NCBI RefSeq assembly: GCF_964355755.1
Contig: NC_092673.1
Coordinates: forward strand, 18,101,648 to 18,165,647
Source of the DNA: Antedon mediterranea
Taxonomy: Eukaryota; Animalia; Echinodermata
DNA length: 64,000 bases
Direction of reading: 5' to 3'
Of this stretch, positions 3,395-57,110 are shown one piece after another. The notes below the pieces were generated by a model. It searched no databases. It saw only the letters and a list, made by a program, of their open reading frames with translations, and was not told the DNA's origin. Position 1 is the stretch's first letter, and each line of letters opens with the position of its first letter. A program made the position numbers and the translations under genes.

Positions 3395-3865
3395 ATGGAA
3401 AGGTACGTTTTTAACAATTATTTCAAACAAAAATAACCAGCTCCAATATGTGTTGATATTATTGAAATATGCAACTATTAAAAACAAATTAAAATGTTTG
3501 AATAGTTATATTGACATACATATATACATAACATACTTTATGATCAGAATTTATAATTCAAACAAAAAGAAAACACTTTGATTTTAAGATATTCTTTTGA
3601 GAAAAATACTTCAAACTTTCTTAAAAGATTATAAAATCCAAAATTATGAAATCATAAATATTACAATTAAAGGGCTTATTCTCATTAAATATAATATTAA
3701 TAATATTTCCATCAATCATCATTCTCATTAAATACACGGGTATAAATGGATTATTTCTTACATTTTGACAGGAAACATTTGGTAGAAGCTTTGTTAAGGA
3801 ATGATTTGAAAACAATTAAACAAATCTGTAAGACGCAACCAGGTCTTCTGAAATCTATCAATGAG
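3395..3865 (+). CDS. Start exon (ATG GAA AG) plus ankyrin N-cap exon
   Basis: 3395-3402|gtacgt joined to gacag|3772-3865|gtata gives MERKHLVEALLRNDLKTIKQICKTQPGLLKSINE, a helix-helix cap ending in phase 0 before NGDTPLH. An acceptor at 3315 implies an upstream 5'UTR exon. Confidence 0.65.
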
Positions 3866-6800
3866 GTATAAAAACAGATATATTTTTATAATATTATCAA
3901 AGAAGAAATTCTTTTCATTAAAGTTTAAAATTATAGAGGATGTAATTTTATTTAATAGTTTAAAGCTTTTTTACTTAATGAATTACAATTCTTTTGCATT
4001 ATCACACTGATGATGGAGGTATAACCTGCATGTACTGATTAACCACATTAGGCTAAAAATAATAATATAAATACACACTGATGATGGAGGTATAACCTGC
4101 ATGTACTGATTAACCACATTAGGCTAAAAATAATAATATAAATACAAACTGATGATGGAGGTATAACCTGCATATACTGATTAACCACATTATACACACT
4201 GATGATGGAGGTATAACCTGCATGTACTGATTAACCACATTAGGCTAAAAATAATAATATAAATACACACTGATGATGGGGGTATAACCTGCATGCACTG
4301 ATTAACCACATTAGGCTAAAAATAATAATATAAATACACACTGATGATGGAGGTATAACCTGCATGTACTGATTAACCACATTAGGCTAAAAATAATAAT
4401 ATAAATACACACTGATGATGGGGGTATAACCTGCATGTACTGATTAACAACATTAGGCTAAAAATAATAATATAAATACACACTGATGATAGGGGTATAA
4501 CCTGCATGTACTGATTAACCACATTAGACTAAAAATAATAATATAAATACACACTGATGATAGGGGTATAACCTGCATGTACTGATTAACAACATTAGGC
4601 TAAAAATAATAATATAAATACACACTGATGATAGGGGTAAACCTGCATGTACTGATTAACCACATTAGGCTAAAAATAATAATATAAATACACACTGATG
4701 ATGGATGTATAACCTGCATGTACTGATTAACCACATTAGGCTAAAAATAATAATATAAATACACACTGATAATGGGGGTATAACCTGCATGTACTGATTA
4801 ACCACATTAGGCTAAAAATAATAATATAAATACACATTGATGATGGAGGTATAACCTGCATGTACTGATTAACCACATTAGGCTAAAAATAATAATATAA
4901 ATACACACTGATGGGTATGGCAAGCCTCAGCTGTCTGGAGTATTCAAAATATTATATTATTATAATAATGATAATTATGATTTTATCACATTATTTAGCA
5001 GCAATTGTTGTTGTTTGTAAAAAAAAACCAATGTCTGTTGTCAGTATTTATAAACTTCATTATGATTCCTTTCCAGAATGGTGACACTCCATTACATTCA
5101 TATCTGAAGAGTGGTGTATATGCACCTACCTTAGAAATAGTGACTTGTCTCATTCAGCATGGGGCACCAGTAGCATTGCAAAATAAGGTATTGTACAGGG
5201 ATTTGCTAGTGTAATAGGCTAACATTGTATAGATATGCTGTGGTAAACCATTCTATTTTGTTCTACTCATTTATTAATAATGATAATTATGATTATTTAC
5301 CACAATATTTAGCAGCAATTGTTGTTGTTTGTATTGACAAAAAACAAACAATTTCACATAATGTCTGTTGTCAGTATTATACACCAGTAACATTGCAAAA
5401 TAAGGTAATGTACAGGGATTTGCTAGTGTAATAGGCTAACATTCTATAGATATGCTGTGGTAAACCATTCTATTTTGTTCTACTCATTTATTAATAATGA
5501 TAATTATGATTATTTACCACAATATTTAGCAGCAATTGTTGTTGTTTGTATTGACAAAAAACAAACAATTTCACATAATGTCTGTTGTCAGTATTATACA
5601 CCAGTAACATTGCAAAATAAGGTAATGTACAGGGATTTGCTAGTGTAATAGGCTAACATTCTATAGATATGATGTGGTAAACCATTCTATTTTGTTCTAC
5701 TCATTTATTAATAATGATAATTATGATTATTTACCACTTTATTTAGTAGCAATTGTTGTTGTTTGTATTGACAAAAAACAAACAATTTCACATAATGTCT
5801 GTTGTCAGTATTTATAAACTTTATTATGATTCCTTTCCAGAATGGTGACACTCCATTACATTCATATCTGAAGAGTGGTGTATATGCACCTACCTTAGAA
5901 ATAGTGACTTGTCTCATTCAGCATGGGGCACCAGTAGCATTGCAAAATAAGGTAATGTACAGGGATTTGCTAGTGTAATAAGCTAACATTATATAGATCT
6001 GCTGAAGTAAACCATTTAATGAGAGAAAAAAGTAAGCACATTAACAAAAATCAAATTTTATTAAAACAAACCAAATAAAAAAATAACTAAATAGTTATAT
6101 TTGATTTATGATAACTGATTTAAAGTGTACAGTTACCTATCATATAACATAAATCTTTAATTTTCTTAATGAACAAAAAAATCTATTTTATTTTATATAT
6201 TCAGTCATTAATTAACAATTATTGACAATGGTCTAATTAATTGTAAATATGAAATAAAATGCGACAACTACTAAACAACTAAAAATGTTTATGTTAAAAA
6301 AATTAATAGAATCTGATTTTAATAAAAAATAATTATTAATTAATAACCTGCTCCCTCCCTTACCTTAAAAAAATGCTTCTGTCATTCTATCCAGCTAATT
6401 ATAAACATGGCCTTAAACTACATCTGGAGATCCTTTTCCAACCTAGGATCTTTTTGTTCAAACATTTTGCCACAAAATGAAGAGAAATGTACACAATGTT
6501 TTGTTAGTTTTCAAAATCTAAATTGTTTGAGTAATGCAATTTAAAAAGAAAGGTACAGTAATATGAAATTATTCTTTTCAAACTGAATGCTTTTAAGAAA
6601 AGTTCTGTCTCTTTATCTTATGACTTTTTTGGAAATATGATTTCTTGTTAAAATATAATATACTAGTAAGTGCTCACAGATGCTTTTTGAATACATGAAC
6701 TTTGGTAGATAACTGAAAATTGCACTGTACACAAAGCAAATGAATACAGATATGATGGAATTTATGTAGTCAAATATAATTGTCATCCTGAGAATTACCT

Positions 6801-9800
6801 TCATTTTGTTTATTACATGGTATTGTTCACCAAATTCCTGTCTTGGTACATTTGATGATGGGATGGTATCAGGCTTCATGATATGATATGATTTTCATTG
6901 AGGCAAATGGTTTAAACTAAATTTGTTATCGTTAATATCTAACTTAACTTAAATGATATTGGTTTCATTGGGTGTTAAAAATCAGTACTAAAAGGATGTA
7001 CCAACTTTCTCTACCATTGAGTATAAATTCTAGAAGTTGCACTTAATTTACTGAAATTTCCCATTACCTAAATTTATATATAAATTCATTTAACTGCTTA
7101 TTGGTCTCATATTGTTAACATCTAAACATTTGTTTGTACAATTTTATGAAATATGTATTTTATTAATGTTCAAATTTTGTGATTGATATTGTACAGTAAG
7201 TAGATTTTAATGATTACTTACATTAAGTAATAGGCTAACAATCACTAGATCTGAACCATGGTAATATATTATATTTATATTTTGTTTTCATTTATCAATA
7301 ATGATAATTAGGATTTTATCACATTATTTAGCAGTAATTGTTGTTGTTTGTATTTACAAAAAAAACCAATTTCACATAATGTCTGTTGTCAGTATTTATA
7401 AACTTCATGATTATCATTCCTTTCCAGGGTGGTAACACTCCATTACATTCATATCTGAGGAATCGTGGATATACAACAACTATACCTACCTTAGAAATAG
7501 TGACTTGTCTCATTCAGCATGGGGCACCAGTAGCATTGCAAAATAAGGTAAATGTACAGGGATTTGCTAGTGTAATAGGCTAACATTCTATAGATATGCT
7601 GTGGTAAACCATTCTATTTTGTTCTACTCATTTATTAATAATGATAATTATGATTATTTACCACAATATTTAGCAGCAATTGTTGTTGTTTGTATTGAAA
7701 AAAAACAAACAATTTCACATAATGTCTGTTGTCAGTATTTATAAACTTCATGATGATTCATTTCCAGTATGGTGAAACTCTATTACATTCATATCTGGAG
7801 AGTGGATATACACCTACCTTAGAAATAGTGACTTGTCTCATTCAGCATGGGGCACCAGTAGCATTGCAAAAGAAGGTAATGTACAGGGATTTGCTAGTGT
7901 AATAGGCTAACATTCTATAGATATGCTGTGGTAAACCATTCTATTTTGTTCTACTCATTTATTAATAATGATAATTATGATTATTTACCACTTTATTTAG
8001 CATTAATTGTTGTTGTTTGTATTAAAAAAAAACCCAATTTCACATAATGTCTGTTGTCAGTATTTATATAACATGATTTTGATTCCTTTCCAGGATGGTG
8101 ACACTCCATTACATTCATATCTGAGGAGGCAATATAAACCTACCTTAGAAATAGTGACTTGTCTCATTGAGCATGGGTCACCAGTAGCATTGCAAAATAA
8201 GGTAATGTACAGGGATTTGCTAGTATAATAGGCTAACATTCTATAGATCTGCTGAAGTAAACCATTCAATGAGAGAAAAAAGTAAGCACATTAACAAAAA
8301 TCAAATTTTATTAAAAGAAACCTAATTAAAATAATAACTAAACAGTTATATATGATTTATGATAACTAAATCAAATAACATTTATCTTTTTTCTTAATGA
8401 ACAAAAACAATCTACTTGTAATTTGTTATATTCAGGTGAATCAGTATAATTTTGTTTAAATACTTTGTACCATAAAATAAATATATATTGCTCATATGTA
8501 GCTGTAAAGATAACAACAATTGAAAATGGTCTAATTAATTATAAATATGAAATAAAATGAGGCAACTACAGTATGTTCACAAATAATAAAATAGCAAACA
8601 AAAATGTTTGTGTTATTGTTAACAAAATTAATAGAATCTGATTTTAATAAAAAAGAATTAGTAATTGTTAATAACCTTGCTCCCTCCCTTACCTTCCAAA
8701 AAAAATACTTGCGTCAGTATATCCAGCTAATTACAGTTTGAATATGGCCTTAAAGAGATCCTTTTCCAGCATTTTTTTTTTTTGCAAACATTTTGCCACA
8801 AATGGAAGAGAAATGTAAATAATGTTTAGTTTATAGTGGTTTCCAAAATCTAAAAATGTTCGAGCAATGCAATTGGACATTTTTTTATATTCAGGTGAAT
8901 CAGTATAATTTTGTTTACATATTTTTGACCGTAAAACAAATATAAATTGGTCATATGTAGCTGTAAAGATAACAATGATTGACAATGGTCTAATTAATTG
9001 TAAAGATGAAATAAAATAGGACAACTACATTGATTAATAATAAAATAACAAATAAAAAATGCTTATGTCAAAAAAATAATAGAATCTGATTTTAATAAAA
9101 AAATAATTATTAATTAATAACCTGCTCCCTCCCTTGCCTTACAAAAAATGCTTCTGTCAGTCTATCCAGCTAATTATAAACATGACCTTAAAGAGATCCT
9201 TATCCAACCTAGAATATTTTTGTGCAAAAATTTTGCCACAAAAGGAAGAGAAATGTAAATATTTTGTTAGGGCGTGTGTCTATTGAAAAATAAAAAAAGA
9301 ATGGTTTTTTTTGGAAACCGGTTTCGGCAGTTGTTTATAAATAAATATCGCGTTGCAGCTCAATTTTTACTCCAATAAAACCGGTTCCGTCCATGTGCGT
9401 TATGAATGATGTCATTATACACACCACAATGCAGTTCGTTAGGCGGAGGCGCAATTGGATCAAGGTCATGTTTACTTTTCCAAGAATTGCATCCATTTCA
9501 TAGAAGGAGGCAGGTAATCCTGTCATTATTACCTGAAACGTTATTGTGGTCCTTGGTTAAAGTATAGGTAGGCCTACATCACACCCTCCGATATTGTCAA
9601 GTTGAACTCGTCTAGCTTTCACACGCTTTACAATATTCCTAAAAACATGTACGCAAGTCTTTCTTCCGACTCTCGGCAAGTCCCCTCACCGTTTTTTTGT
9701 GGGGACTCATTTCTGCTGGCAAGAAAAAACCGTTCTTAAAAAGAACGGTATTCAAAACCGTATCAATAGAAACAGGCCCTTAGTGGTTTCCAAATTTTAG

Positions 9801-12800
9801 CAGTAATTGTTATTGTTTGTATTGTCAAGAAACAACACAATTTCACATAATGTCTGTTGTCAGTATTTATAAACTTCATGATTATGATTCCTTTCCAGGA
9901 TGTCGACACTCCATTTTTCTCTTTTTACATGTAGCAAGTTGTTTGGATGTAAATATCAAAGTAGTCTACTATTGAACAGTTCCAGCTTTTTTTTTTTTTT
10001 TATTTCATTGGTATTTGAATAATATCCAAATATTATTTGCTGTGACATTTTGGTATTTATATTATTGCTCAAACATTTTAACAAATCTTCCTACTGTTCC
10101 AAAGTAAACTTGTATTCAATTTATCTCTCTCTTCCATCTTTCAATGTTGAAGGCGGTAGACGATAAACGGCAGCGCTCAAGTTTTGATACAGAAGTTATA
10201 GGTGGCGTTTATTTCTATTCACATCCTAATTTACAACCAATGTTAAAAAATAGTATATCTACGTGTTATCATGTGATGCTCTTTCATCCAATCGCTAGAT
10301 GGTAAATGTTTGAGCCATGATATAATACTGTATGTATGTGATGCGTAATTGAAGTGTGTTATATTGTATATCAATAATTTCTCAAAACTACTAATAACTA
10401 AACCCATTTTTTTAATAGGATGGAAATACACCTGTCTCTATTTTAGAAAGTAACAGGCTGATAAGTGACCAAAGAAAAACTGAAATTTTAAACTTCTTAG
10501 AAGGTAAGTGAAGTTTTAATTATTGAAATTTTAGGATCAACTAGTTTCATTGCAAACGATAAAGATTTGATTTCTCATCAAGTGAAGAAGAATGTCCAGA
10601 TAAAGAAAATTAACATTTATGATATATCATTCACAGGTTTATTATAGATTAAATGATTCAGTGGGATAGTAGTATACATGGAAGTTGTGATATGTTGCAA
10701 GATGTAAATTATTTTGCTATTAATACGATAAAAATAACACAAAAACGCACACTTTAAAATTCCTTTGAAATAAAAATATTAAATAAATCATTTTTCAAAT
10801 CAAATCAATCTCTTTATTCAATACATCAAAACAGTACACATAACAAAAATAAAGAGATTTTAATGATGATGATGATGATTTTAAGATGAAAGGGACCTCC
10901 AATAAACCTCAAGGGGCTTGTGATAGGAGGCCCACTTTAAACTAGTTACAATAATCGTATAGACGAATAGGCCATGGATCAACAGGGGATGCGCATTGTT
11001 AAGGAATATTTGAACTTTATTAATTGCACATAAATGTAAATGTAGATTTTTTTTTTTTTAATGTAATCTATTTTATATATAATGCTATTGTACAATTGGT
11101 ATTCGCATTCAAGGCAAACAATTTAAGATAGGAGGAGATAAATATTGAATATAAAAATCCAAATTTCTTGTTAAATCCCATTTTTTGTTTCCACAATGGA
11201 TGAATTTCCTTCACACACTTTAAAGCCAGCTTAAGAATACTATTTCTCTGTATGTAAAATTAAACATCATGCATAATGTATTTTACCTTCACTCCTACAA
11301 TTGTATTATCTTATACCAGGGGTGGATCTAGTCAACTTTATTAATTGCATATAAATGTAAATGTAGATTATATATTTTTTTTTAGATTGTCGATATGGGA
11401 CAAACACATTTTTTTTTTCTTGACGCCCGGAAATAGCATCTGAAGCGTTTTGGCTGGTCGATTCTTGTCATATAATTATCTAAATATATGTTGATATAAA
11501 GTTTGCGGTACACCATGTATATAAGTTTTGAAAAGAACTGTTGAGTTTCTTGATGTTTCGATCAATATTCTTTGATCGTCCTCAGGAGAGAGAATGCAGA
11601 AAGTCCAGGAAACTGGGAATATAAGTGGAATATGATATATAAATATAGTTTGGTTTTAAAGCCTGTTTTCTTGTCGATGCAGCGAGTTTCGTTGATTTGC
11701 GTTGAATTTTTTTTTGTTAAAGTTGAAAAAAATAATAACGATGATCGATCCGGATAGGTAATATTTACACATTTTTACATAATCGCGTTCATAGTTTCTT
11801 GGATCTCGTGAGCGTTGAAGTGACACGCGGATGTGAAGTTTTGCAGAACCAAGACCGTCCACAGCAGCCGTGGTCGAGTGAAAATTGAAAAAGTTACAGG
11901 TTTTGATGCTTCAATCCAGCCTAGGACATGTTTTCACTTATTAATCTAGGCTTTACACTAAAGACACATTAAATTAAATTGTTTTTATATTTTAATTCAC
12001 AAACTGTGATGACATAATTTGTGAACTATTTGATTGGTCAGTTGAAGTTGAATTCAGGTCAATGATTAAAGATTTTAACGTTTTTACCTCATCTTCCTGT
12101 AAAATTGTTGTATGTAAATGGGTGGCGTGTCAATGACATTTAAAAGAATATAAAACCCCCCACACCCCCCCCCCCCCCAATTTTCCCCTGTATATAACTT
12201 CCAAGCAAATTGTAAAGCAATACATAATATTTGAGCAGTTAAATTATTGAAAAATACACACAGAATAATAGAATATTATACAGGTATTGCCTGCTTAGAG
12301 GTTAAATATAAGATTTGACATCCCCGAGGGAATGTTCGAGGGAATATATATTTCCCGAAGCGCTAGTTCTCAAGAACATAATATCATTCCCAAGGGGTTG
12401 TCAAATCATATATTTTACCGATATAAAAGGCGATATCTGTTATATTACATAGCCAACAACAAGTTGAATATCTACTGCTGGGTCGGGGTTAGCTAGGCCT
12501 CCTTTGTAATAAGCCTGACTAGTTAAGTGTTGCATTCACCTTACCTTGCGAAGAATAATATAAAGATAATTACTAATTAATGATTCCTTGGCAATAAAAT
12601 ATTCACTTAGGCCTATGTCGTTTAAATTACCAGAAGAATTTTCATCAATAAGCCTACATTAATGATAATAATATTATTATCAGGTAGGCCGCAAAAATAA
12701 TAATTCGTCTTCTTCGAGGAGCCGAATCACCGGATGTTCAGCGCGCCGTTGTATTGTGATGATGGACAAATCATCGCGAGTTCAAGTCTCAGTAGATGAC

Positions 12801-15800: not shown

Positions 15801-18800
15801 GAAGCTAAAGCATAGGGGTATAGTTGTTGTTATTAGTAATATCACCTGATTTACTCTTAACAATCGGCACTAATAACTAGAATAACACATGACCATGACA
15901 CAGCATATCATTAAAGCATATACTCAATAAGATATTAACCCTTTAAAGACATGGCTCGCATCCCATACGGGGTAATTTACTGTCCCAGGACATGCAATCA
16001 GGCGCAGGATTGGTTAAAGCAAATAACAGAATAGGCAAATTGATTGGTTTTTTCATTGGAAAGCAGCAAATAAGCCTATCCTACAACACTGCCAAAAGCA
16101 GTCCCACTGTCCATTTGACCAATCCTGCGCTTGTTTTAAGACATGGGGCCCGTATATGTACGGGTTGACTTTTTGGGGTCACTAAATTGCACTTTTTGAG
16201 CATTTGACCTTTGAACTAGGCAAAACAAAAATTTTTGGAAGGCTAAAACATTTCACATAATAAATCCAACAATTGCAGAAAGTTACAGCCATAAAAATGG
16301 ATTTTTGCATTTTTCCTAAACCTATTAAAAATACCTTATTTATTAGCCTCTGTCACTTGTGGTAGAAACCTTGCGTCTTCAAATGGTTAAGTCCTTTACT
16401 AGCATATTTAATGTGTGCACAATAATAATTTATTATTATACTGTATGACACACACATCAATGTAAACAATTAACCATTACAGTGTGTTACATGCATGAAT
16501 GCAGATGTAGAAAATGTGTAATGGAATAATAGGAATAAAGATTGTATGAAATTGTGTGTTAATCCTGGAAAGTTCAATTTCAATTTCAATATTATAACAT
16601 AAAAAACATAAAACTATAGTTTGTTAATAAATATAATTCCATAAAAATACAATGAAAAGTAGTTCAGTCATGTGAAGAGAGTAATGTAAGTCGAAGATAT
16701 AACATTAAAAATACAAAAAAGAAGAAAAAATACATGAACTAATAGTATATTTAAAAAAAAACAAAGCTACAATTTCTATTTAAACCACTTTATCCGATCT
16801 TAACTGGTATATTTAACGTTCATCATATCTAGAAAGTAAAAGACAAAACATTAATTTAAAAACACAGTGTAAATATCTATAATAGAATGAGTATTGTATT
16901 GTTCATATAATTATGAATAAGCTGGTGTGGTGTTGATACACAGCAGAAACTGGCTATTCTATAAATATAACCATTGAGAAGTAATTTCTTCATGATATAA
17001 ATAAACACATGTGTATGATAAATCAGGTTGAAATAAAATAATTTGCATTGTGTAATGAAGACAATTGTGACAATGGCTATTTATCAAATACCATTAAGTA
17101 ATATCTTACATTAGATTTTTATTTTTCAGATCAAATTATGGAAGTAATTGTGGGATTTGCTGGTGAAACACTTCATCTTAAGGATGAAGACATCAAGTTG
17201 GAGATACATTCTGAAGCAATTGAAGGGGAAACAGTTAAAGTATCGCTAGAAAATTTTTCTGAGGAAACAGGCATGCCTGTACTTCATTCTCATGAATCAA
17301 TAATATCACCTATTGTTAAATGTGGACCAGAAGGCACCAGCTTCAAAAAGCCCATTTCATTGTCATTTCCACACGATGCTGTAAATGAAGAGAATTGGAA
17401 ATTCACTCTACTTGTTAAAGATCGCATTCAAGATGAATGGAAACGTGATGAAAAGGACATACAGTTTACTTTAAAAAACGGTCGATGTTGTATAACATTA
17501 ATTCATTTCAGTTTTTATGCACTAATTGGTCATATAAGAAATTTCTTTGGTAAGAAAAGAATGTTGTTAGGAGTTTTTGGAAAGATGCTTGCAAATGATG
17601 AATATCAACTTCAAACAAGACTTTTTAAGCCGTCAGATAAACAGGTAATTACTATTTGTTGTTAAACTGTATTTAAATAAAGTAGTTCTTAATTTACTTA
17701 CATTAACAAATATTTTCAAAATATAGATATAATAAATAGTTGCTTTGTCATATTTGGTCAATAACATTAACCTAGAGTAGTTAATTTGGCATAATATTTA
17801 TTCTCTTATTTTTATATCTATATATAAATTTACGTAAGGGCAAAAATCGGTAAATCGCGCGTTATTTCTAGAATGTTTACTCGATGGTATATACAGTTGG
17901 TTAGAATCTCGGTACTCATTTTAACCACCTGATGTAACCCTGTTTACTAATTAAATTGAGTTAGATAATTAGTTATTGACAATTAAAACAAATTTAGGTT
18001 CAACGATTTGCCCCAAATAGGGGTGTTTTCTGATCGTGGCATACACTGTCTAATGGATGTCAATTTGAAAAATACCCGCATACGATAATACAAGGACACT
18101 TCGCATTTTCCTATCTCCTCCTACGATAATTGTTTTTAATAGCTGAAAACCGGTTGAACAGTTCGAGTACAGTATCATAATGTTAAAGACAGGCCGATTT
18201 TCCTTAAAAAATGCTATTTTGATAGATTTAATATAGGTTTATATAAATGTATTGATTTGCGATGAATGGAACATTCCAATCTCTGTTCTACAAGTGTCTA
18301 TTCCCTCAGGCGTCGTAACGGCAAATACTGTATACTCATAACAGAAATTCGATCAATTTTTTTTTCAATCTGTGCTGCAGAGGTTGGATATAGATTTTTT
18401 TAACGGATAATGAGCTAGCGTTTTCAGTCGCCGTATATTATGTACAGATCTTTATTATTGCAGTTAAACCACCCCGGGAACCACCCACATCATCACCCTT
18501 CCCTCACTGGCATGAGTAGCGTTGTTGTAAAGCCAGTAGAGGATAGGCCTACGGTGGTACGAAGGATCAACAACAACTTTGGTGGGTAGGGTAGGAACCA
18601 ACTTAAGTATGAATTGGCTCTAGAAACAATTGAAAACCATTAGGCCTACTAATTAAGTTGAGTTAGATAATTTAATATTTATTAACGATTAAATCAAATT
18701 TATGATTTGCCCCGAATAGAGGTGGTTTTCACAAATTGTTTAACATTATATAAACATATATACGTCGTAGTGATGTATCGTTACATGTACTGTACTATTT

Positions 18801-21800
18801 CAATCGATTAGGACGGTGATAGTTTCAACAAAGTAATTACATCGCCGCAATGTTTTACTGTGTTTAGTGGTATATTATTTGTAAAACATGAAAACAATTA
18901 ATATTTCGTTACTAAATGGATAAAGAATATATTTAAAAATTGTTCCTCTTTGCACCCATCCTCTTCCCCATCCCTCAACCATAATGTTACATACAAAACA
19001 CAAATTAAGTTTGTTTAAATTTGACTTAAACAATTGGTTTCATTTTGTGACAAGTTTCTCTTTCGGAAGTAATTCCCAGGGTGCTAATTTTAGTTGAGCA
19101 CATAAATCACAGTGTCTATTTATTTATTCGTTCCTGTAAACGACATGTATTATTGTCCTGCATTATTGTACATTTGAAATCACCAGTTTTTTAACGCTGA
19201 AATTATAATGTATTCGAGAACTATCTGTGGGCACGACCTAGATGGTTTGCGAGCGAAGCGAGCTTACCATCTAGTACCTTAAAATTATACAGTGTACAAT
19301 CATGTATTGAATTGATTCCTGATCATTATAAAATATGCTGTAAAGAAGTAAACATGATGATTGCATTGTACACTTCCCTCATATAATTAATAAACTAATA
19401 TACACAGTCACAAATAACAGTAAGTATATGTATTTCAGACGATAAAAGAAGAGCACAGTGAAATTGGTGAGAAGCCTTTAATAACACCAGTAGATATACT
19501 ATCTATGTATATGGACATGAACATTACTGTAGCAGTATCAGAACAGGAATGGAAAGTTCATGAGAAAAAAAAAGTAGGAATATCAATATTTTTAGTAGAT
19601 TGGCATGGTAAAGAATTATGCATTAAACATGTTTTTGCAGGAATACCACATAACTTGAGAATTCATAATGATAATTGATCAATAAATAAAATCTCTATTG
19701 CTATCCATATATTTAGCATACTGGATCACGATACTGAGTTAAGATCTTTAACTCTGTCTACACTGTCAAAAACTAGTTTGACAAAAAAAGTGTGATATAT
19801 ACAAATATGGTAGTGATATGCCCAAAAATGGTAGTGATATGACATCATCTTGTCCATATATAGGCACATTTTGTTTGATAGTGTAGACAGAGCTTTAGAA
19901 TAAAAATGCTGTCTTTTGATTAGTCTCGTTGGAGGATGCACACTTTTAATTGCAGTTAGCCATTTTTGTATTTCTCATTGAGAGAAAAACTCTTTGAATG
20001 AAAGCATTATCATAACATATAACACATAACATTATAAACAAAATTATTTAAAAAAAAATGTATTCACCAAAGCAATCAATTTAACTACAGTGCCTTTCAG
20101 CTGTAACTTTTTATCTCCTGGCTCCTTTTTTCCCTTAGACTGTCACTGCTGAATACCTATGGCGTGGAACACCATTGAAGAATTTTCTTTTAAAAAGAGG
20201 TAATTCATCAGCAAAAGTCCTAAAGGCAACAGTATCACTGTCACAAGAGTCAAATGATATTGATCCAGTGGAAGTGAATTGTAAGTATTTAAAATGCAAC
20301 AACAATTAAAGTCTAAATTTAGAATGATTGTAATAAATAAAATGTACTATTCAAATACGGTAATCAGACATTACCATCCATGACAATAACCACCCATTAT
20401 TAACTGTACCATTGTTAGAATATGGGGTGGAATCAATATAGGTGTTGGCTTGTTTTTTATCTAGCACTACAATACACTTTGGTTACATTGCTAGTTCCTA
20501 AAACACCTTAATTCTTCCGCATATCAAGCAGAGGATTTTTATTTCGAATATCGGTTGGGTGTTTTTTTTTCTAATTCTTACAGATTTTCTCATCTTAATT
20601 TTTTTATATTATTTAATTTCCAGTATAATATTACTAGTCAAGTTTTTCTATATATATATACACTATATATAAATCTGGTTTCTTTTTTTATTGAAAAAAT
20701 GATTAAATATTTTATTTGTTATAGGTAATGTTGAGACATCAGGACCAAATCCAGGTATGTTATATTAATTGTGGTAATGATTAAGTCTGTTTTCACCTTG
20801 ACCAGAGAAAAGGCATAAGCCAATACGTCTGAGGCAGATACTAGATGCAAGGGCTGCCAGCAGTTCTGATTTTAAATGCTTGATGGGATCTCAACTCCCA
20901 GACGGTCTCCCATCCAAGCTCCAACCGGGTCCAACGTTGCTCAACTTTGGTGATCAGACAAGAAAACCAGTGTTTCAACATGATAAGGCCGTATCATATC
21001 ATGTAGTGCATGAACAAACAAAAAAACAGACTACAATTTGTAGAATTTAATTCACCACCATTTCTATGGAAAATTATACAATAAAGAGTGCCCTTAAGCA
21101 CTATTTTGTCTGGCACTATTAGCCAGATTTTATCAACTTTACAGGTTATATTCCAACCAATGTGAATAGTTTTATGGTAAGCGCCGGCAGGCATCTATGC
21201 CAGCATGCCTATGAACATTTTTAGACCATGATACATTATAGCAAATATATTTACTGTAATTTTTAGCTAATTTGTTCATCCCATGCTGGTACAGGTGTTC
21301 CTCCCAGTACAGGTGTGTCTTCTGGTACAGGTGTGTCTTCAGGTACAGGTGTGTCTTCAGGTACAGGTGTTCCTTCCAGTACAGGTGTGTATTCTGGTGC
21401 AGGTGTGTCTTCTTGTACAGATAAACAAAATTTTCAAAACTTTCTTTTATTTAAAAGTCGAAGATAGCCAGGTCTCGGGTCCATTCTGTTGTCGTCACAG
21501 ATTGATATCTTCATCAGTACTTCTATGAATGGATGATTAGGTGGGAACACGAACGCTAGTTGATCATACCCAGTACCGTTTTGATCGTACGATTAATCGG
21601 GAAACCTCCTCACGATATATATAACATATTCTATATAATAACATTAAAATGTTTACTTTTCTTGTCACAGTTACATAGTAATATTTTTAGTTAATGGTTA
21701 TAGTTACTCAATAATAGTATAATTGTTTGTTGCAGAAACAAGAAATCCATTGGAAGACAAGTTCAACAAGTTAAATTATGATCTCAGTGAAGTATTTATG

Positions 21801-24800
21801 AAGTATCAGAAAAGATATTATTTTTTGAGATGTTGTCTCTCTGAGCACATTGCATTACAGGTCCTTGGCAATAGAGATTGCATAGCAAATGATTATTTCA
21901 ATGAACTCTCTGAGAAAGGATATATCAAACCAACTGATGTTGGTCTTTTGCTAAATATTGCAGAATTATCAGAAATTCAGGAAGCTAGAAATGTTGTAGC
22001 ACAGTATATGAGAGACAACAATGTTAAAAATACTGATAGACATAAGTTGTCCCCATATAGGAAAAGATTGTGCAAGGCATTGAGAGAGTTTAACCCAAAT
22101 GAAATCAATAAGATTAATGCTTTTTATCAATTGGAATTATCAACCATTTGGGATGTCGCATTTGAGTTAGAGAGGAAAAACAAATTAGTGAATAAATCAC
22201 AGAGAAAAGCGTTTGCTAACATTCTTGGACCAACTCCTAAGAAGATACTTGGTATGTACAATATTTTTTGTATTAAAAAATTGTCTATAGAGTAGGTGTT
22301 GTTAATAAAAATATTAGTTTTTATGAAAAGATTTTGCTGGTGGCCTTTATTTTACACTGACAATCTGTATTGATAAGAAAATACTAAAAGTACAGTACAT
22401 TTTCTCACATCAGATCAGACCATATGTTTTAGTATGTGGCTGCCTTGAATGAAAACTTCAAAACTATTGCAGAGAAATTCATTTTTAATGCTAATTTATT
22501 TAAAAAAAATAAACAACAGACAAAATAGCTAATAGTATTATTAAAGACACCTTCCCTACAATTTGTGACGTTTTGTAAAAATAATACATACATATTACTT
22601 TAAAAACATTAAACCAGGTCATTCCTTGTCGTAAATGTACGTTTTATGGTAAATTATGATAAAAAGTGAGAAACAATGCACTACCTAAGTAGCTCGCGGC
22701 GAGTGACCTCTCGTAGTCGGTCTTTAGGCCTAGCCTAGCTAGGCTTAGTTTTGTAGGCCTAGCTGGTAAACATCGGTAACGTACGAACATCGTACGCTAC
22801 CTATATACCTAGCCTGACGTTGTATAGTTGCTGCATTAATTGTCTTTCTATTTTTGCCAGACTCCGTTGATACAAATTGAGGAAAACCCGGTATTTTCGC
22901 TGAAAAGTTAGGAGTCTTCCATTTGTTTTGGCCTCACGATCGATCGAAAAGTGGGTGAATTACATACGGAAAAAAAAAAAATATCAATCCGCGCGCAATG
23001 CATTTTGCGATTTATAGCGGGCCGCTATAATTATTAGAATCGGCTTATTTTTCACATTTTTAATCATTTAAAGACGAAAAAAGTTATCGCAATAGGACCA
23101 TATAGTATTAACATTAAATATAGTTTGAGATCTTAAATTAGATCTAAAAAATGTAGGGAAGGTGTCTTTAATGTCACCAAGTTAATTTAATGATAGATGA
23201 TACCACACATACTGACATGAAATTATTAAAATATTTAAAAAAAATCGTATCTCTTCACAGATGAGCAAGACGATACAGCGACTACTACACAAGCCAGTGA
23301 ACAAGGTATGATCCATTGATGATACAGTCAAGTGTATAAATACTAATTTACATTTTGTCAAACCAAAATTGAACTGTTCACCGCTGTTAAAAAACCAAGC
23401 ATTATTATTATTAAACTATCTGTTTTTTTTGGCTTAACTCTTTCACTGCGTGTACCCGGTATTACTAAGTATAAACAAATGTCGTTGAACTGTGGTATAC
23501 TCGGTATTACCGGGTATGAGAAAAATTATTATTTATTTGTATTTGCCTATAATATAGCACCCTCTATAGTTTTTTGATAAACTTGAATACAGTATTTGCA
23601 ATTCATTAAAACTAATTTTTAGCACAACATGCGCCCTCTATAGTTGTTAATATCGTCTTGAAATTTCTATTTCAACTTGCGCCCTCTATCACATGTTATT
23701 ATTATTATAACCTTGTAATTAAAATTATTTTAACCATGGAAAGTTATATTATTAACTACAATGACACATAAACATTCTCCAGTTACCAATTTACCCACCC
23801 CAATAGAACAATATCATGTTCATTCTGCAAAAAGAATTCTGAATTAGTTGTTAGTTTTTCTGTAACAATGATTTGATGATTTTGACCAACAATTTATGCC
23901 TAATTTTTTATAAAATGATAAAAATAATTCAAATTTGTTTGATATTTTTATTCGTTACACATATCTTCATCAATATCCAGTGGGAAAACCATATTCCATA
24001 AAAACTATAGAAAAAATAGTTTTTATCATAAATTGATAAAAAAAACAGAAAATCCAAAATAGATGTAATGATGTCATTAATATGCAAATTAGCTTTTTTT
24101 TTACTTCTAACCATAGACCAACCTTTTAAAATAATTAAAAAATTATGTCATTTATTCTTTTTTGCACATTTCTTAAATGCATATGCACATAGCTGGGACT
24201 AATGCTTCAATGAAGTAAATGTTTGTGTATATTAAATAATTAATAATTTATTGCCATCTGCCACAACTTCCCATCTTATTAAAATAATACTAATGACAAT
24301 GGCAGTGAAATAAGAAATAATACTTGGACAAAACATGCAAAATTGTATTATTTCACAAGATTCCAATAAAAACTACTTTTTCACAGATGTGCAAGATGGT
24401 TCAGTGACCTCTGCATTAGCACAGTCTGACATCCAAGGCAGTCAACAAGGTAGGATCCATTGATTACATTTAAAAATAAAACTAAATAGACATATTATAA
24501 TAATAACTGTAGCACATTTTGAGTTATTCAAAATGTATACATTTTAGATGAAAATGTATAGTTATGTTACTCTCCAAAATGAACATAAAATGTATAGTTA
24601 TGTTACTCTCCAAAATGAACATAAAATGTATAGTTATGTTACTCACCAAAATGAACATAAAATGTATAGTTATGTTACTCTCCAAAATGAACATAAAATG
24701 TATAGTTATGTTACTCTCCAAAATGAACATAAAATGTATAGTTATGTTACTCTCCAAAATGAAAATGATGAACATAAACAGTCATTTATTTGTGTGTCAC

Positions 24801-27800
24801 TCATACAAAATAAAAAGCTTTGTCATTAATGTGTAATATATAACTGTCTTTTTTGTATTTTTGTTTGAACAGAATTAACAAAGCTATTAGCATCAGATTC
24901 ACCAGTTACTGTTAATGAGGAATTAAAAACACAAATGAAGAAAGTGATGATTGAGGAACAGGAAAGAAAACTTGAAGCAGAGAGCGGTGAGTTAAGGATC
25001 ATAAATTAATTTACTTTTTATTTCGTCACACTCAACAGTGACACAAGTCAAGTCAATTGCAAAGTTCAACAATAGAAAATGATGAACATATTTAAACATA
25101 ATTATATAAACAAAATCCAAAGCAGTCTTAAGCTGGCCTTTAATATACTGTTCAACGTATACTAACAATAACTGTCTTTTCTGGATTTTTTTATTGAACA
25201 GAAGTGACAAAGCAGTTTCCATCGGATTCATCAGATACTCTTAGTGATGAATTTCAAACACAAGTAGTGGAACAGGAAACTAAACCTGAACCAGAGAGTG
25301 GTGAGTGTCATAAAATATTAGTTGTGTTATTATATGGTTAAAATAACTTTAAATGTAGAATGGATTTTAGCTACATTTTTTTTTTATTTCAACATTTATA
25401 AAAAAAAGAATGTCTTTAAACAGAATTAGAAAAAAATACTAAATTCATACATTTAAACGATTGATAAGGTAAATAACTTATTTAACTAATCTTTAAAACA
25501 ACATGTCTTTTATTATTTAGTCAAGAATAAAAGCTGATACATTGAACAATATCTGCATAAATACTGTCATGATATTTATATATAAGTTGCTGTGACACTT
25601 ACAGGCCACCGTACTTTGATCACACAAACAAAACATATTCATTATGGTCGGCAATGTATTATCAACAAACTTAAAAATAAGAGATAGTTCTCTATCCAAT
25701 GTAAATAGAACAGTTTATATTTCATCAAAGAACATATTGTTATTGTTAATCTTATTTTGATATGCTTGCTCTATAAATTCAACAACAGATTAATTATGAT
25801 TGGTCAAAGCTCTCTGTGAAGCTGTCAACATCTTTGAAAATAGGCTTCTGGGCTCAACTTACTAAGTATTTGCTGCCCCATATATCTGGGAAAATTGGCC
25901 GTTGGTAGAGACAAAATTTGAAATTTACTTTGTTATTTATAAAGTCGCAAATTAGCATGCAACATACAAATACATTGCAAAATAATAACAAATTGATATT
26001 AATTAATAATCAAATTAGGGTGTGTTACATTGTATAGGTCTATGGTACAGGGCTCAGGTGGCAGGCCTTTACTTTACTTGCCAACTAATGTTTATTTTTT
26101 TCTTATATAAATTTTCTGGTTTTTTATTGTAATAACCTAATGCTATTTTTTGTAATATATTAATAAACCATAAATCAATAAAAAAAAATGAGGTTCTGCA
26201 CAGTAAATGAAGATGATAATGGATGAAAATGTATTAGAAATTTATGTTATTGTGGTTGATTGTGTTGAGTAATGAATAATCAAGTGCTGTTGCTTGTGAT
26301 ATTTAATTCTTAATACTAATACTCATTTCAGATCTGCAGTCGCCAGAAAATGACAGGTAAGTAGTACTGTATAATGAGTGTATCACAGTATCTATACTGT
26401 TTATTTATACTCTCCAATACCATAGAGATAGACCAACACCCTGCTAGTTAATTGTTTGCCCTGAGATGATAGTCTGGAAGGGATACATATTATTACTATC
26501 ACTTGTGTGTCTATCAGTTCAGTTGTATATTAATAACATAACCTGTTAATACAACCATAAAGTTCAACCATAGAAATAGTGTTGAAACAATTATACACAA
26601 AATCAAGAATAACAAACATCAAAAGAACTTTTAAACCCAACAACCAAGTTATAATAATAATGAAACAATCCTGGTTTTATATAGAATTACATTCTGCATA
26701 AGCTTAACGGAGGATGACGGACCTTTTGTCCTACCAATATTTTTAATTTCAGTAAGATATATGCCACACTTCCGTTTTGGCCGACAGACTCCCATATTTA
26801 TACTTGTCTCTTAGACTAACGTGCTCCTGGTTTTATATTCTCCCGTATTACAAAGATAACTGAACTTTGATGTATATGTGTTGCTTTCTGCAATAAAATA
26901 TAAAAAAAAAAAGCTAAAAAAACATACAAATTTATGATATTTAAGTCATAATTTATTGATCACCTTATTGAAGGGGATTCTTTTCACATAGTCATTATGG
27001 TACCAATTGCTCCTTGCATTTCCTGATTTTGATAATAATACTGTAAAAAAGGGAGTGGGGATGGGTTGCTAGAACCATAAAACCCTCCTGCTTACGAGTC
27101 TGTTATCCTTATTATAGGGAGTGGGGAGGGGTTGCTAGACCATAAAACCCTCCTGCTTACGAGTCTGAATCCTTATTATAGGGAGTGGGGAGGGTTTGCT
27201 AGACCATAAAACCCTCCTGCTTACAAGTCTGTTATCCTTATTATAGGGAGTGGGGAGGGGTTGCTAGAACCATAAAACCCTCCTGCTTACGAGTCTGTTA
27301 TCCTTATTATAGGGAGTGGGGAGGGGTTGCTAGAACCATAAAACCCTCCTGCTTACGAGTCTGAATCCTTATTATAGGGAGTGGGGAGGGTTTGCTAGAC
27401 CATAAAACCCTCCTTCTTACGAGTATGTTATACTTATTATAGGGAGTGGGGAGGGTTTGCTAGACCATAAAACCCTCCTTCTTACGAGTCTGTTATCCTT
27501 ATTATAGGGAGTGGGGAGGGTTTGCTAGAACCATACTTACTTACGAGTCTGTTATCCTTATTATAGGGAGTGGGGAGGGTTTGCTAGAACCATACTTACT
27601 TACGAGTCTGTTATCCTTATTATAGGGAGTGGGGAGGGTTTGCTAAAACTATAAAACCCTCCTGCTTACGAGTCTGTTATCTTTATTATAGTTTTACTAA
27701 TGTGTACATATACATTTTTATTTTTAGCCTGAAAGAAAGCATACAGACATTTGTCAAAGGTAATTTCCTTAATCATTATTGATAATCTATACATTTTTAC

Positions 27801-42800: not shown

Positions 42801-43000
42801 AAGTTGTAATTGTAGATTTTGATTTTCAAATTTAATAAACGCAAAAAAAATAATAATAAAACTGTAAAATCTTGAAAGCTCACACAAAAATTAAAGGTGT
42901 TTAAATCAATTATTTTTTTTCCCTTTTTCTTTCAGAGAACTGTGGCTTGATAATTTGTTGTATTGTAGCTGTAGTATTGGCATATAAGCATTGGAAATAG
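3395..43000 (+). CDS. Multi-exon gene: ankyrin repeats - ZU5/UPA - tandem DED - linker - HEPN (DZIP3-like)/coiled coil - linker - C-terminal TM; about 1253 aa if all 29 exons are used
   Basis: Exons with ag/gt borders and compatible phases: 3395-3402, 3772-3865, 5077-5187, 5841-5951, 7428-7547, 7768-7875, 8094-8201, 10419-10503, 14409-14465, 17130-17644, 19439-19573, 20139-20280, 20725-20754, 21736-22251, 23261-23305, 24387-24449, 24873-24986, 25202-25300, 26332-26356, 27728-27759, 31607-31651, 34464-35165, 37840-37902, 38508-38624, 38826-38921, 40616-40714, 41748-41772, 42625-42656, 42936-43000. The sum is 3762 nt with an open frame to TAG. No transcript evidence. Confidence 0.8.
4004..4912. 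repeat. About 71-bp intronic minisatellite, roughly 13 copies
   Basis: acactgatgatggaggtataacctgcatgtactgattaaccacattaggctaaaaataataatataaatac units. Confidence 0.95.
5077..5187 (+). CDS. Ankyrin repeat exon 1 (37 aa, phase 0-0)
   Basis: ttccag|NGDTPLHSYLKSGVYAPTLEIVTCLIQHGAPVALQNK|gta; GxTPLH...EIV..L...GA ankyrin consensus. Confidence 0.9.
5841..5951 (+). CDS. Ankyrin repeat exon 2 (identical to exon 1)
   Basis: Same 111 nt as 5077-5187, with ttccag/gtaatg borders. Confidence 0.88.
7428..7547 (+). CDS. Ankyrin repeat exon 3 (40 aa)
   Basis: GGNTPLHSYLRNRGYTTTIPTLEIVTCLIQHGAPVALQNK, phase 0-0. Confidence 0.9.
7768..7875 (+). CDS. Ankyrin repeat exon 4 (36 aa)
   Basis: YGETLLHSYLESGYTPTLEIVTCLIQHGAPVALQKK, phase 0-0; not in the ORF track. 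Confidence 0.88.
8094..8201 (+). CDS. Ankyrin repeat exon 5 (36 aa)
   Basis: DGDTPLHSYLRRQYKPTLEIVTCLIEHGSPVALQNK, phase 0-0. Confidence 0.9.
9270..9779. mobile_element. PIF/Harbinger-like MITE
   Basis: TIRs gggcgtgtgtctattga / tcaatagaaacaggccc; TTA TSD at 9267-9269 and 9780-9782. Confidence 0.75.
9899..9915 (+). pseudogene. Truncated ankyrin exon remnant
   Basis: The conserved upstream intron and ttccag acceptor are followed by GAT GTC GAC ACT CCA (DVDTP); homology then stops and a TAG follows. Confidence 0.75.
10419..10503 (+). CDS. Ankyrin C-cap exon (phase 0-1)
   Basis: tttaatag|DGNTPVSILESNRLISDQRKTEILNFLE+G|gtaagt. Confidence 0.8.
14409..14465 (+). CDS. Linker exon (phase 1-1)
   Basis: tttttcag|(D)LPSPVSDQFEKLKVEKQN|gtgagt. 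Confidence 0.7.
14960..16420 (-). mobile_element. Degenerate non-LTR retrotransposon RT fragment with an internal 69-bp triplication
   Basis: YQFAFKAKHSTDTC...LDASKAFDQVN and NGVRQGGVMSPLLYNIY RT motifs; stops and frameshifts; 69-bp unit repeated at about 15229-15470. Confidence 0.85.
15939..16386. mobile_element. piggyBac-type MITE inserted in the LINE fragment
   Basis: TTAA|ccctttaaagac ... gtcttcaaatgg|TTAA; removing it rejoins the RT frame (HIKYASKGL/NILLSICFN on the minus strand). Confidence 0.75.
17130..17644 (+). CDS. ZU5 domain exon with HFS motif
   Basis: VGFAGETLHL...ISPIVKCGPEGTSFKKPISLSFPH...LIHFSFYALIG matches the ZU5 consensus of UNC5/PIDD/UNC5CL. Confidence 0.88.
17817..19274 (+). 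mobile_element. Non-autonomous Helitron, copy 1
   Basis: A|TCTATATATAAATTTACG ... hairpin ... CATCTAG|T; second copy at 28477. Confidence 0.85.
19439..20280 (+). CDS. Two UPA-like domain exons (19439-19573, 20139-20280)
   Basis: TIKEEHSEIGEKPLITPVDILSMYMDMNITVAVSEQEWKVHEKKK / TVTAEYLWRGTPLKNFLLKRGNSSAKVLKATVSLSQ...; beta-rich, directly after ZU5, phases fit. Confidence 0.7.
20896..20994 (-). pseudogene. 5S rRNA-derived sequence (pseudogene or SINE3 head)
   Basis: Reverse complement tacggccttatcatgttgaaacactggttttcttgtctgatcaccaaagttgagcaacg...cttggatgggagaccgtctggga resembles metazoan 5S including box A and box C; the 3' end diverges. Confidence 0.8.
21736..22251 (+). CDS. Tandem death-effector-domain (DED-DED)-like exon (phase 1-1)
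   Basis: FNKLNYDLSE...DYFNELSEKGYIKPTDVGLLLNI...VVAQY followed by LSPYRKRLCKALREF...IWDVAFELERKNKL, resembling caspase-8/cFLIP prodomain repeats. Confidence 0.7.
22545..23167. mobile_element. Kolobok-like MITE
   Basis: TTAA|agacaccttccctaca ... tgtagggaaggtgtct|TTAA; empty site with a single TTAA in the paralogous intron at 31511. Confidence 0.85.
23261..27759 (+). CDS. Linker exon block copy 1 (six small S/T/E/Q-rich exons)
   Basis: 23261-23305, 24387-24449, 24873-24986, 25202-25300, 26332-26356, 27728-27759; canonical borders, frame kept, conserved in copy 2. Confidence 0.75.
24550..24777. repeat. 36-bp minisatellite, about 6 copies
   Basis: aaaatgtatagttatgttactctccaaaatgaacat units. 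Confidence 0.92.
27051..27690. repeat. About 65-bp minisatellite, roughly 10 copies
   Basis: gggagtggggaggg(g/t)ttgctagaaccataaaaccctcctgcttacgagtctgttatccttattata units. Confidence 0.92.
27771..28342. repeat. About 88-bp tandem repeat, 6-7 copies
   Basis: aatcattattgataatctatacattgttacaacatgctgctattagctgtgatatcttcattcctcttaccagtagtagtactatcag units. Confidence 0.92.
28380..30330 (+). mobile_element. CR1/L2-like LINE endonuclease fragment, interrupted by a Helitron
   Basis: IDPDQNF, HFNARSL, IYRAP, ILGDFNIDIL, SLIDNI and SGLLYSDIS are AP-endonuclease motifs. Confidence 0.75.
28477..29616 (+). mobile_element. Non-autonomous Helitron, copy 2, inside a LINE fragment
   Basis: Same TC/CTAG termini and subterminal hairpin; internal deletion relative to copy 1. 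Confidence 0.85.
30690..31483 (-). mobile_element. Helentron-associated (HINE/DINE-1-like) element with GACA/GACC microsatellites
   Basis: agtcgcg subterminal repeats, terminal palindrome gagtcgcttccacgcgact and tetranucleotide microsatellites; absent from the paralogous site near 22510. Confidence 0.65.
31607..42656 (+). CDS. Linker exon block copy 2 (seven small exons flanking the HEPN exon)
   Basis: 31607-31651, 37840-37902, 38508-38624, 38826-38921, 40616-40714, 41748-41772, 42625-42656; paralogous to copy 1. Confidence 0.75.
33208..33882 (+). mobile_element. HINE/DINE-1-like element
   Basis: 5' ttacctccgcc and 3' ggcggaggta subterminal inverted repeat, followed by a hairpin and ctagtt. 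Confidence 0.75.
34464..35165 (+). CDS. DZIP3/hRUL138-like HEPN domain plus coiled-coil exon (702 nt, phase 1-1)
   Basis: NYFRICCLL..EGTKAMR.FF...Q..LLFP......EDFDMTLL.ILI.NLC...DLRIFRNDQAH...ISQHDF...W..LS.IL; RxxxxH at 34811-34828; C-terminal heptad-like K/E/L run. Confidence 0.85.
35650..36462 (-). mobile_element. RTE-clade LINE endonuclease fragment
   Basis: GDFNAKVG, IGNFGSGHRNDRGE, NTFFKK...RWTWRSPDG..KNEIDLIL, SDHR. Confidence 0.85.
39140..40525 (+). mobile_element. 5'-truncated CR1/L2-like LINE (RT plus 3'UTR)
   Basis: ORF 39159-40244 with DFTKAFDRVDH, GVPQGTKLGP and a mutated YVND catalytic motif; AT-rich 3'UTR ending in aataaa. Confidence 0.9.
42936..43000 (+). CDS. Terminal exon encoding a tail-anchor transmembrane helix
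   Basis: Long pyrimidine tract, then ttcag|(E)NCGLIICCIVAVVLAYKHWK*. Confidence 0.8.
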
Positions 43001-57090: not shown

Positions 57091-57110
57091 CCAAAAGGGC
57101 AGTTAATGCT

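What the first reader, a model, noticed from the sequence alone, without database searches (positions are those of the whole stretch)
5077..8201. Natural DARPin-like array: one-repeat-per-exon ankyrin cassettes varying at binding positions
Seen: five phase 0-0 exons share essentially the same framework codons and flanking introns. They differ at the residues either side of the hairpin Gly (NGD/GGN/YGE/DGD) and after helix 1 (KSGVYA/RNRGYTTTI/ESGYT/RRQYK, with in-frame indels). I found no synonymous change in the framework; the few framework changes are all non-synonymous. Known: these are the positions randomised in designed ankyrin repeat proteins. Homogenised repeats with hypervariable sites are typical of fungal NLR repeats and Ectocarpus ROCO/NB-ARC shuffling exons. 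Inference: a recognition surface diversified by positive selection, exon shuffling, and possibly combinatorial splicing or somatic rearrangement.
Basis: partly seen in the sequence, partly recalled or inferred. Interest (0 to 1): 0.9.

Follow-up and report, generated by a model that had tools for sequence, protein, structure and literature searches.

The report
Feather-star hypervariable ankyrin exon cassettes
A feather-star gene builds a protein-binding surface from near-identical ankyrin exons that differ almost only at the predicted binding groove and in one variable-length loop, and is predicted to join it to cell-death signalling domains, so it is likely a fast-evolving intracellular immune sensor of a family for which our literature searches found no description.

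Summary
Five phase 0-0 exons each encode one ankyrin repeat; two are identical. They lie between N-cap and C-cap exons in a predicted, open gene model: ANK array, ZU5 (with the His-Phe-Ser self-cleavage motif), UPA-like, tandem DED (caspase-8-like fold). The animal is an Antedon-like crinoid. Relatives in A. mediterranea on four large contigs carry the same or related cassettes on Roc-COR-DED or other tails. Diversifying selection is supported: all 13 local changes are non-synonymous; variable codons differ by 37% against 7% in flanking introns; across genomic copies from four samples, codons 1-16 show 26 non-synonymous and 0 synonymous variants. Corrections: framework synonymous changes exist genome-wide; only 4 of 6 DARPin positions vary; the main diversity is a length-variable helix1-helix2 loop that DARPins keep fixed. 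One probable RNA run shows cassette-to-cassette splicing, and one RefSeq isoform pair differs by one repeat. Nothing supports somatic rearrangement. Best reading: a germline-diversified cytosolic sensor family paralleling brown-algal shuffling-exon ROCOs, here wired PIDD1/NLRP1-style. Ligand and immune role are untested.

The parts
3395..3402 (+). Predicted start exon (Met-Glu-part of Arg), phase 2 donor
   Evidence: gives the same N-terminus as A. mediterranea P0009
3772..3865 (+). N-cap ankyrin exon
   Evidence: ag/gt sites; translation identical to the N-terminus of P0009; helical cap in model
5077..5187 (+). Ankyrin cassette 1 (37 aa; NGD, loop KSGVYA)
5188..5621 (+). Two exon-deleted 217-bp units that keep only the last codons and the donor (ends 5404, 5621)
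   Evidence: the deletion junction also appears as a loose end in run X1
5841..5951 (+). Ankyrin cassette 2, DNA identical to cassette 1
7428..7547 (+). Ankyrin cassette 3 (40 aa; GGN, loop RNRGYTTTI)
   Evidence: nearly the same loop occurs with another hairpin in P0009
7768..7875 (+). Ankyrin cassette 4 (36 aa; YGE, loop ESGYT)
8094..8201 (+). Ankyrin cassette 5 (36 aa; DGD, loop RRQYK)
9796..9918 (+). Truncated sixth copy: acceptor intron plus about 20 nt of exon
10419..10503 (+). C-cap ankyrin exon (phase 0-1)
   Evidence: closely similar to the C-cap of P0010
14409..14465 (+). Linker exon (phase 1-1)
   Evidence: resembles the linker before ZU5 in P0005; covered by 99%-like contigs in runs X1, X2, X4
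17130..17644 (+). ZU5 exon with His-Phe-Ser motif (about 17504-17512) and the start of UPA
   Evidence: Pfam ZU5 E=3.6e-16; motif; UNC5B best PDB hit
19439..20280 (+). Two UPA-like exons (19439-19573, 20139-20280)
   Evidence: no Pfam hit alone; homologue P0006 has a weak UPA hit, E=6.5e-5
21736..22251 (+). Tandem death effector domain exon (phase 1-1)
   Evidence: AF2 pLDDT 93; top Foldseek hits caspase-8/cFLIP tandem DED, TM up to 0.70, best E=1.5e-3; no Pfam DED hit
23261..27759 (+). Short acidic linker exons, first copy of a duplicated 3' block
   Evidence: model open for 828 aa up to 26356
34464..35165 (+). HEPN_DZIP3 exon (phase 1-1) inside the second 3' block; joining to this gene not shown
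   Evidence: Pfam E=6.6e-13; splice sites
42936..42999 (+). Last exon of the second 3' block: short hydrophobic tail and stop, a possible membrane anchor; joining not shown

Best explanation
This is likely the variable sensor end of a crinoid intracellular immune receptor, whose one-repeat ankyrin exons are duplicated, lost and likely recombined in the germ line while selection diversifies the predicted binding groove and a variable-length loop, and whose ligand binding would release a self-cleaved ZU5/UPA-tandem-DED tail to engage caspase-8-type signalling. Shown: exon anatomy, excess of amino-acid changes at the variable sites, a multi-gene family with swapped tails, ankyrin and tandem-DED folds (predicted), the HFS motif. 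Inferred: unequal crossing-over or gene conversion as the homogenising force, self-cleavage, release of the tail, a microbial ligand.
For: (1) Selection. 13 of 13 local changes are non-synonymous (P=0.03); 9 of 13 fall in the six DARPin-type codons fixed in advance (18 of 99 nt, P=8e-5). The four variable codons differ at 27 of 72 pairwise sites (37%) against 7.0% in introns and about 2% in the framework. In contigs of four samples from two species labels, the 40 shown of 47 variant rows give 26 non-synonymous and 0 synonymous in codons 1-16, against 9 and 4 in codons 17-32 (Fisher P=0.009). Six of the 8 listed gapped pieces lie at or after 7756, and all six have 3 or 6 gap letters. (2) The same sites vary in separately homogenised subfamilies P0012 and P0183; P0183 loops reach 18 extra residues. 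(3) Dynamics: identical twin exons, deleted and truncated units, 2 to more than 10 repeats per annotated protein, and one loop paired with different hairpins in the two species. (4) Tails: ZU5-HFS, UPA-like and tandem DED here; Roc-COR-DED in P0012 and Roc in P0010 and P0048. PMC9162469 (passages): HFS drives PIDD1 self-cleavage, and NLRP1 is activated by release of its cleaved tail. (5) Transcription of the family: run X6 has one cassette-to-cassette join and two contigs running on into a C-cap-like sequence.
Against: No ligand, tissue or infection data. X6 is only guessed to be RNA, its joins rest on 1-2 contigs and may come from paralogues; expression of this locus and the splice from the C-cap to ZU5 are not shown (15 joint rows seen, 574 hidden). 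Variant rows were classified one base at a time against exon 4; alignment in an indel-rich loop can inflate substitutions, and rows are not independent events. Seven rows were hidden, and none after 7861 was shown. Some copies look broken: unpaired 2- and 4-letter indels and two loose ends out of frame. Codons 26-32 also vary genome-wide, off the groove. The tandem DED match is above E=0.001. No codon-model dN/dS was run. No NACHT, NB-ARC or Roc domain was found at this locus.
Confidence: 0.65

Rival explanations
1. Neutral tandem amplification of an exon-bearing repeat, with a slippage-prone, unconstrained loop and many decaying copies.
For: The window is rich in tandem repeats (53 rows); exon-deleted and truncated units sit in the array; some genomic copies look frameshifted or lack the donor; the 3' half of the cassette is laid much more deeply than the 5' half in organism B.
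Against: Variable codons change about five times faster than the introns and without synonymous changes; local indels are in frame; the framework is more conserved than the introns (4 of 87 against 24 of 145, P=0.006); the same positions vary in other subfamilies.
Confidence: 0.1
2. The surface is diversified for a non-pathogen reason, such as self/non-self allorecognition, genetic conflict or guarding a fast-evolving host protein.
For: Fungal repeat NLRs of the same evolutionary type act in allorecognition (PMC4986451, passages; PMC12222747, listing). ZU5-UPA-death-fold proteins also have non-immune roles (PMC9162469).
Against: A multi-locus family with death-fold, HEPN and Roc tails fits the lineage-specific immune expansions described for marine invertebrates (PMC8195603, passages). 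No call tests either role directly.
Confidence: 0.15
3. The cassettes form a somatic repertoire, by Dscam-like mutually exclusive splicing or by DNA rearrangement in immune cells.
For: Symmetric phase 0-0 exons allow any subset; RefSeq isoforms P0048 and P0159 differ by exactly one 36-aa repeat; brown-algal ROCO repeats are alternatively spliced (PMC11378527, section 15).
Against: A cassette-to-cassette join and annotated proteins with consecutive repeats argue against strict mutual exclusion. Only five cassettes lie at this locus and none on the minus strand. PMC11378527 states that somatic recombinant ROCO loci have not been reported.
Confidence: 0.1

Closest known systems
[quoted passage not shown]
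   Same: One repeat per in-phase exon, dead repeat exons in introns, variable repeat number, diversifying selection on the binding face; crinoid relatives also carry Roc-COR.
   Different: Ankyrin instead of LRR/TPR; an animal; a length-variable loop; no inverted exons in this window; this locus has ZU5-UPA-tandem DED instead of Roc-COR.
Fungal NLRs with highly conserved ANK repeats (PMC4986451, passages read)
   Same: Homogenised ankyrin repeats with selected sites on the inner helix and hairpin; repeat number variation.
   Different: No NACHT or NB-ARC here; the repeats are N-terminal and each is a separate exon with its introns homogenised too; loop length varies.
PIDD1, NLRP1, CARD8 (ZU5-UPA-death fold; PMC9162469, passages read)
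   Same: N-terminal repeat domain, ZU5 with His-Phe-Ser, UPA-like region, C-terminal death fold.
   Different: Hypervariable ankyrins instead of LRRs; one ZU5; tandem DED instead of DD or CARD; a multi-copy, domain-shuffled family.
Designed ankyrin repeat proteins (PMC9611651 and PMC8683736, passages read)
   Same: N-cap, self-compatible internal repeats, C-cap; model TM about 0.8 to DARPins; four randomised positions vary.
   Different: Natural; repeats 35-40 aa with a variable helix1-helix2 insertion; two randomised positions invariant.
Abalone caspase-nSTAND3-ANK protein P0145 (database protein)
   Same: Invertebrate signalling protein with homogenised ankyrin repeats that vary after helix 1.
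   Different: Strict 33-aa repeats without loop indels; STAND architecture; exon structure not examined. It shows that natural DARPin-like arrays are not unique to crinoids.

Membership tests
Brown-algal shuffling-exon ROCO | One repeat per in-phase exon | tested here: met
Brown-algal shuffling-exon ROCO | Inactivated repeat exons inside the repeat-domain introns | tested here: met
   two deleted units and one truncated copy
Brown-algal shuffling-exon ROCO | Intact repeat exons on the non-coding strand | tested here: not met
   0 minus-strand against 5 plus-strand copies in the window; other loci not examined
Brown-algal shuffling-exon ROCO | LRR repeats | tested here: not met
   the repeats are ankyrin
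Brown-algal shuffling-exon ROCO | Roc-COR in the same protein | tested here: not met
   absent from this gene model; present in relative P0012, Roc in P0010 and P0048
Brown-algal shuffling-exon ROCO | Diversifying selection on the binding face | tested here: met
   counting tests; no codon model run
Brown-algal shuffling-exon ROCO | Alternative splicing of repeat exons | tested here: inconclusive
   one RefSeq isoform pair; no raw RNA reads
Fungal-type NLR with conserved ANK repeats | STAND NTPase (NACHT or NB-ARC) | tested here: not met
   none among the ORFs and exons examined
Fungal-type NLR with conserved ANK repeats | At least 85% internal repeat identity over 100 aa (T-REKS) | tested here: inconclusive
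   framework 0-4 nt differences in 87; the published measure was not computed
PIDD1/NLRP1/CARD8-type self-cleaving sensors | ZU5 domain with His-Phe-Ser motif | tested here: met
   motif defined in PMC9162469
PIDD1/NLRP1/CARD8-type self-cleaving sensors | UPA domain | tested here: inconclusive
   no Pfam hit on the split exons; weak hit in homologue P0006
PIDD1/NLRP1/CARD8-type self-cleaving sensors | C-terminal death fold | tested here: met
   tandem DED by fold, best E=1.5e-3; a different subtype from DD or CARD
PIDD1/NLRP1/CARD8-type self-cleaving sensors | Autoproteolysis and caspase activation | not testable with these tools
   needs expression of the protein
DARPin design | N-cap, internal repeats, C-cap | tested here: met
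DARPin design | All six randomised positions variable in a fixed 33-aa repeat | tested here: not met
   4 of 6 vary; lengths 35-40 aa. 'Six positions' from PMC9611651; their numbering is recalled, and fits the DARPin 6mol alignment
Dscam-type mutually exclusive exon array | Only one cassette per transcript | tested here: inconclusive
   one cassette-to-cassette contig in X6 argues against it; locus of origin unknown

The most novel reading that the evidence does not exclude
Crinoids have a combinatorial cytosolic recognition system: a genome-wide pool of interchangeable ankyrin exons with an antibody-like variable loop, assembled into many isoforms per animal by exon skipping (or rearranged somatically) and plugged into Roc-COR or self-cleaving ZU5-DED death switches; an ankyrin counterpart of VLR or Dscam repertoires in an invertebrate deuterostome.
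Probability: 0.2. Interest if true: 0.9.

Novelty: new variant of a known kind. Interest (0 to 1): 0.72.

Why it matters
It gives a concrete, testable candidate for diversified pathogen sensing inside the cells of crinoids, for which my searches found no such receptor family. It would extend the shuffling-exon receptor strategy from brown algae to an animal and to a third scaffold. It shows evolution varying four of the positions that engineers randomise in DARPins and adding a length-variable helix1-helix2 loop, a natural lead for binder design. The ANK/ZU5-HFS/UPA/tandem-DED layout suggests a PIDD1- or NLRP1-like switch feeding a caspase-8-type pathway.

Tried and rejected
No whole genome is held for this window, so copies could not be counted or placed. 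Contig depths are summed over overlapping pieces and are not used as copy number or expression. Run search: no RNA holder listed; X6 is a guess. (19.9 kb) was swamped by dispersed repeats; its joints across the array (5698 to 7315, 6013 to 7326) can be repeat artefacts and are not taken as deletions. A candidate exon at 21145 was dropped: its splice phase does not fit. Assembly artefact for the twin exons rejected: their flanks differ. Decay of exon 4 (TLLH) rejected: that leucine is common among copies and occurs in 2 of 8 repeats of P0012. Canonical ankyrin-1/2/3 orthology rejected: one ZU5, tandem DED, crinoid-only close hits. No protein with this cassette motif from outside Antedon among the 159 proteins then held; the 120 hits were not scanned with that motif, and the only other Antedon-type hit seen there was P0183. 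Literature searches returned no paper on this family; subscription journals and supplements were not seen. Earlier scan findings: none. No complex prediction was run, as no partner is known.
Full report
Observation. The five exons are at the stated coordinates, each flanked by ttccag and gt, 108-120 nt long and phase 0-0. Each encodes one ankyrin repeat. Exons 1 and 2 are identical but sit in different flanks. The array also holds two 217-bp units that lost the acceptor and most of the exon, and a truncated sixth copy near 9899. Introns between cassettes are 653, 1476, 220 and 218 nt.

Gene context. Splice-site reading gives a model that is open for 828 residues: start exon, N-cap, five cassettes, C-cap, linker, ZU5 (Pfam E=3.6e-16), two UPA-like exons, a 171-residue helical exon and acidic linkers. 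That exon folds with pLDDT 93, and its best structural matches are caspase-8 and cFLIP tandem DEDs (TM up to 0.70, best E=1.5e-3, none below 0.001). The ZU5 keeps His-Phe-Ser, the motif on which PIDD1 self-cleavage depends (PMC9162469, passages). A second, partly duplicated 3' block follows, with a HEPN_DZIP3 exon and a hydrophobic last exon; whether it is joined to this gene is not shown. The model is a prediction: no transcript of this locus was seen.

Organism and family. All 8 ZU5 hits and all 3 cassette hits are Antedon mediterranea proteins, so the window comes from an Antedon-like feather star. The window's N-cap equals that of P0009. P0010 has the same cassettes and a similar C-cap followed by a Roc domain; P0012 has an N-cap, eight 37-38-residue repeats, Roc, COR and DED. 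P0183 has related repeats with loop insertions of up to 18 residues. These proteins lie on four contigs of 22-41 Mb. The sensor array is thus attached to different tails in different family members. Among 159 proteins held, only Antedon proteins matched the cassette motif.

Selection. Among the four distinct local cassettes every difference in gap-free codons is non-synonymous; at least 13 changes, P=0.03. Nine of the 13 lie in the six codons that correspond to DARPin randomised positions (P=8e-5; numbering recalled, consistent with the DARPin alignment). The four variable codons differ at 37% of sites, introns at 7%, the framework at about 2%. Laying contigs of four samples (two species labels) on exon 4 brought 156, 110, 66 and 56 contigs onto 171 bases. 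Of 47 variant rows 40 were shown: 26 non-synonymous and 0 synonymous in codons 1-16, with 17 rows in the five codons 11-15; 9 and 4 in codons 17-32; none in codons 2, 4, 6, 7, 9, 17-21, 23 and 24 (Fisher P=0.009). Loose ends gave further in-frame loops. Caveats: rows are classified one base at a time, are not independent, and loop alignments can inflate them; two apparent stops are probably parts of multi-base changes; some copies look frameshifted.

Structure. P0009, a natural proxy with the same N-cap and the long loop, folds with pLDDT 94; the long loop lies between helix 1 and helix 2 (residues 80-90), and the model matches DARPins at TM about 0.8. Alignments to ankyrins and DARPins need a gap of 2-3 residues at this turn. 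In 10 close repeats the most variable positions are the residue before the hairpin Gly, the two after helix 1 and the loop; the Gln and the splice-adjacent Lys are invariant. Hairpin and inner-helix sites are the known ankyrin binding face, where fungal ANK repeats are also selected (PMC4986451, passages). That the loop extends this face is inferred; I had no coordinates to measure it.

Transcription and splicing. Run X6, guessed to be RNA, holds one contig that joins a cassette end to a cassette start and two that run from a cassette end into a C-cap-like sequence. This shows consecutive splicing somewhere in the family, not at this locus. RefSeq isoforms P0048 and P0159 differ by exactly one repeat, a hint of exon skipping. 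Nothing bears on somatic rearrangement.

Mechanism. Shown: symmetric exons, twin, deleted and truncated units, one loop paired with different hairpins in the two species, and an excess of amino-acid change at defined sites. Inferred: unequal crossing-over and gene conversion keep framework and introns alike while selection keeps binding residues different; the capped ankyrin domain binds variable, probably microbial, proteins in the cytosol; the protein cleaves itself in ZU5, and binding releases the UPA-tandem-DED tail to nucleate caspase-8-type complexes, as in NLRP1 and PIDD1. In Roc-COR members a GTPase would be the switch. Confidence 0.65. Rivals are neutral amplification (0.1), non-pathogen recognition (0.15) and a somatic repertoire (0.1).

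Comparison and novelty. It works like the brown-algal shuffling-exon ROCOs (PMC3341825, PMC11378527) and fungal conserved-repeat NLRs, but fails membership of both (no LRR, no Roc or STAND domain at this locus). An abalone protein (P0145) shows that homogenised, DARPin-like ankyrin arrays occur in other invertebrates, which lowers the novelty of that idea alone. What appears new is the one-exon ankyrin cassette with a length-variable loop, as a family-wide system with interchangeable death-signalling tails in a deuterostome. Eight literature searches found no description; the library lacks most subscription journals, and no supplements were read. Verdict: real, new variant of a known kind, interest 0.72.

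Noticed in passing
window 21736-27779 and 30338-42999: The 3' block of the gene is duplicated (25125-27182 matches 40539-42589 at 98%); the second copy contains an inserted HEPN_DZIP3 exon and ends in a hydrophobic tail. Most of these exons are phase 1-1, a second shuffling class beside the phase 0-0 ankyrin exons.
   Followed up: partly
window 55126-60240: LTR-retrotransposon pol (protease and RT by Pfam; integrase-like ORF after it) split over several frames, flanked by 89-bp tandem arrays and long inverted repeats (51494-52586 against 61316-62395).
   Followed up: no
window 29543-30411, 35691-36528, 39105-40244, 15081-15778: LINE-type endonuclease and reverse-transcriptase fragments in introns of the gene; one abuts the remnant of a second DED exon end at about 30340.
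   Followed up: no
window 1-850, 2028-2661, 4003-4913, 27050-28345: Several young minisatellite arrays (60, 186, 71, 65 and 88 bp units) around the gene; the 71-bp array ends about 160 bp before cassette 1.
   Followed up: no
P0183 (A. mediterranea protein): Two alternating repeat types, one with aromatic-rich helix1-helix2 inserts of 10-18 residues, reminiscent of antibody CDR loops.
   Followed up: partly
P0145 (Haliotis rufescens protein): Caspase-nSTAND3 protein with about 28 homogenised 33-aa ankyrin repeats that vary mainly at the two positions after helix 1.
   Followed up: partly
loose ends at 7824 and 7864: The same out-of-frame or truncated cassette variants appear in runs of both species labels, so some broken copies may be old and shared.
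   Followed up: no
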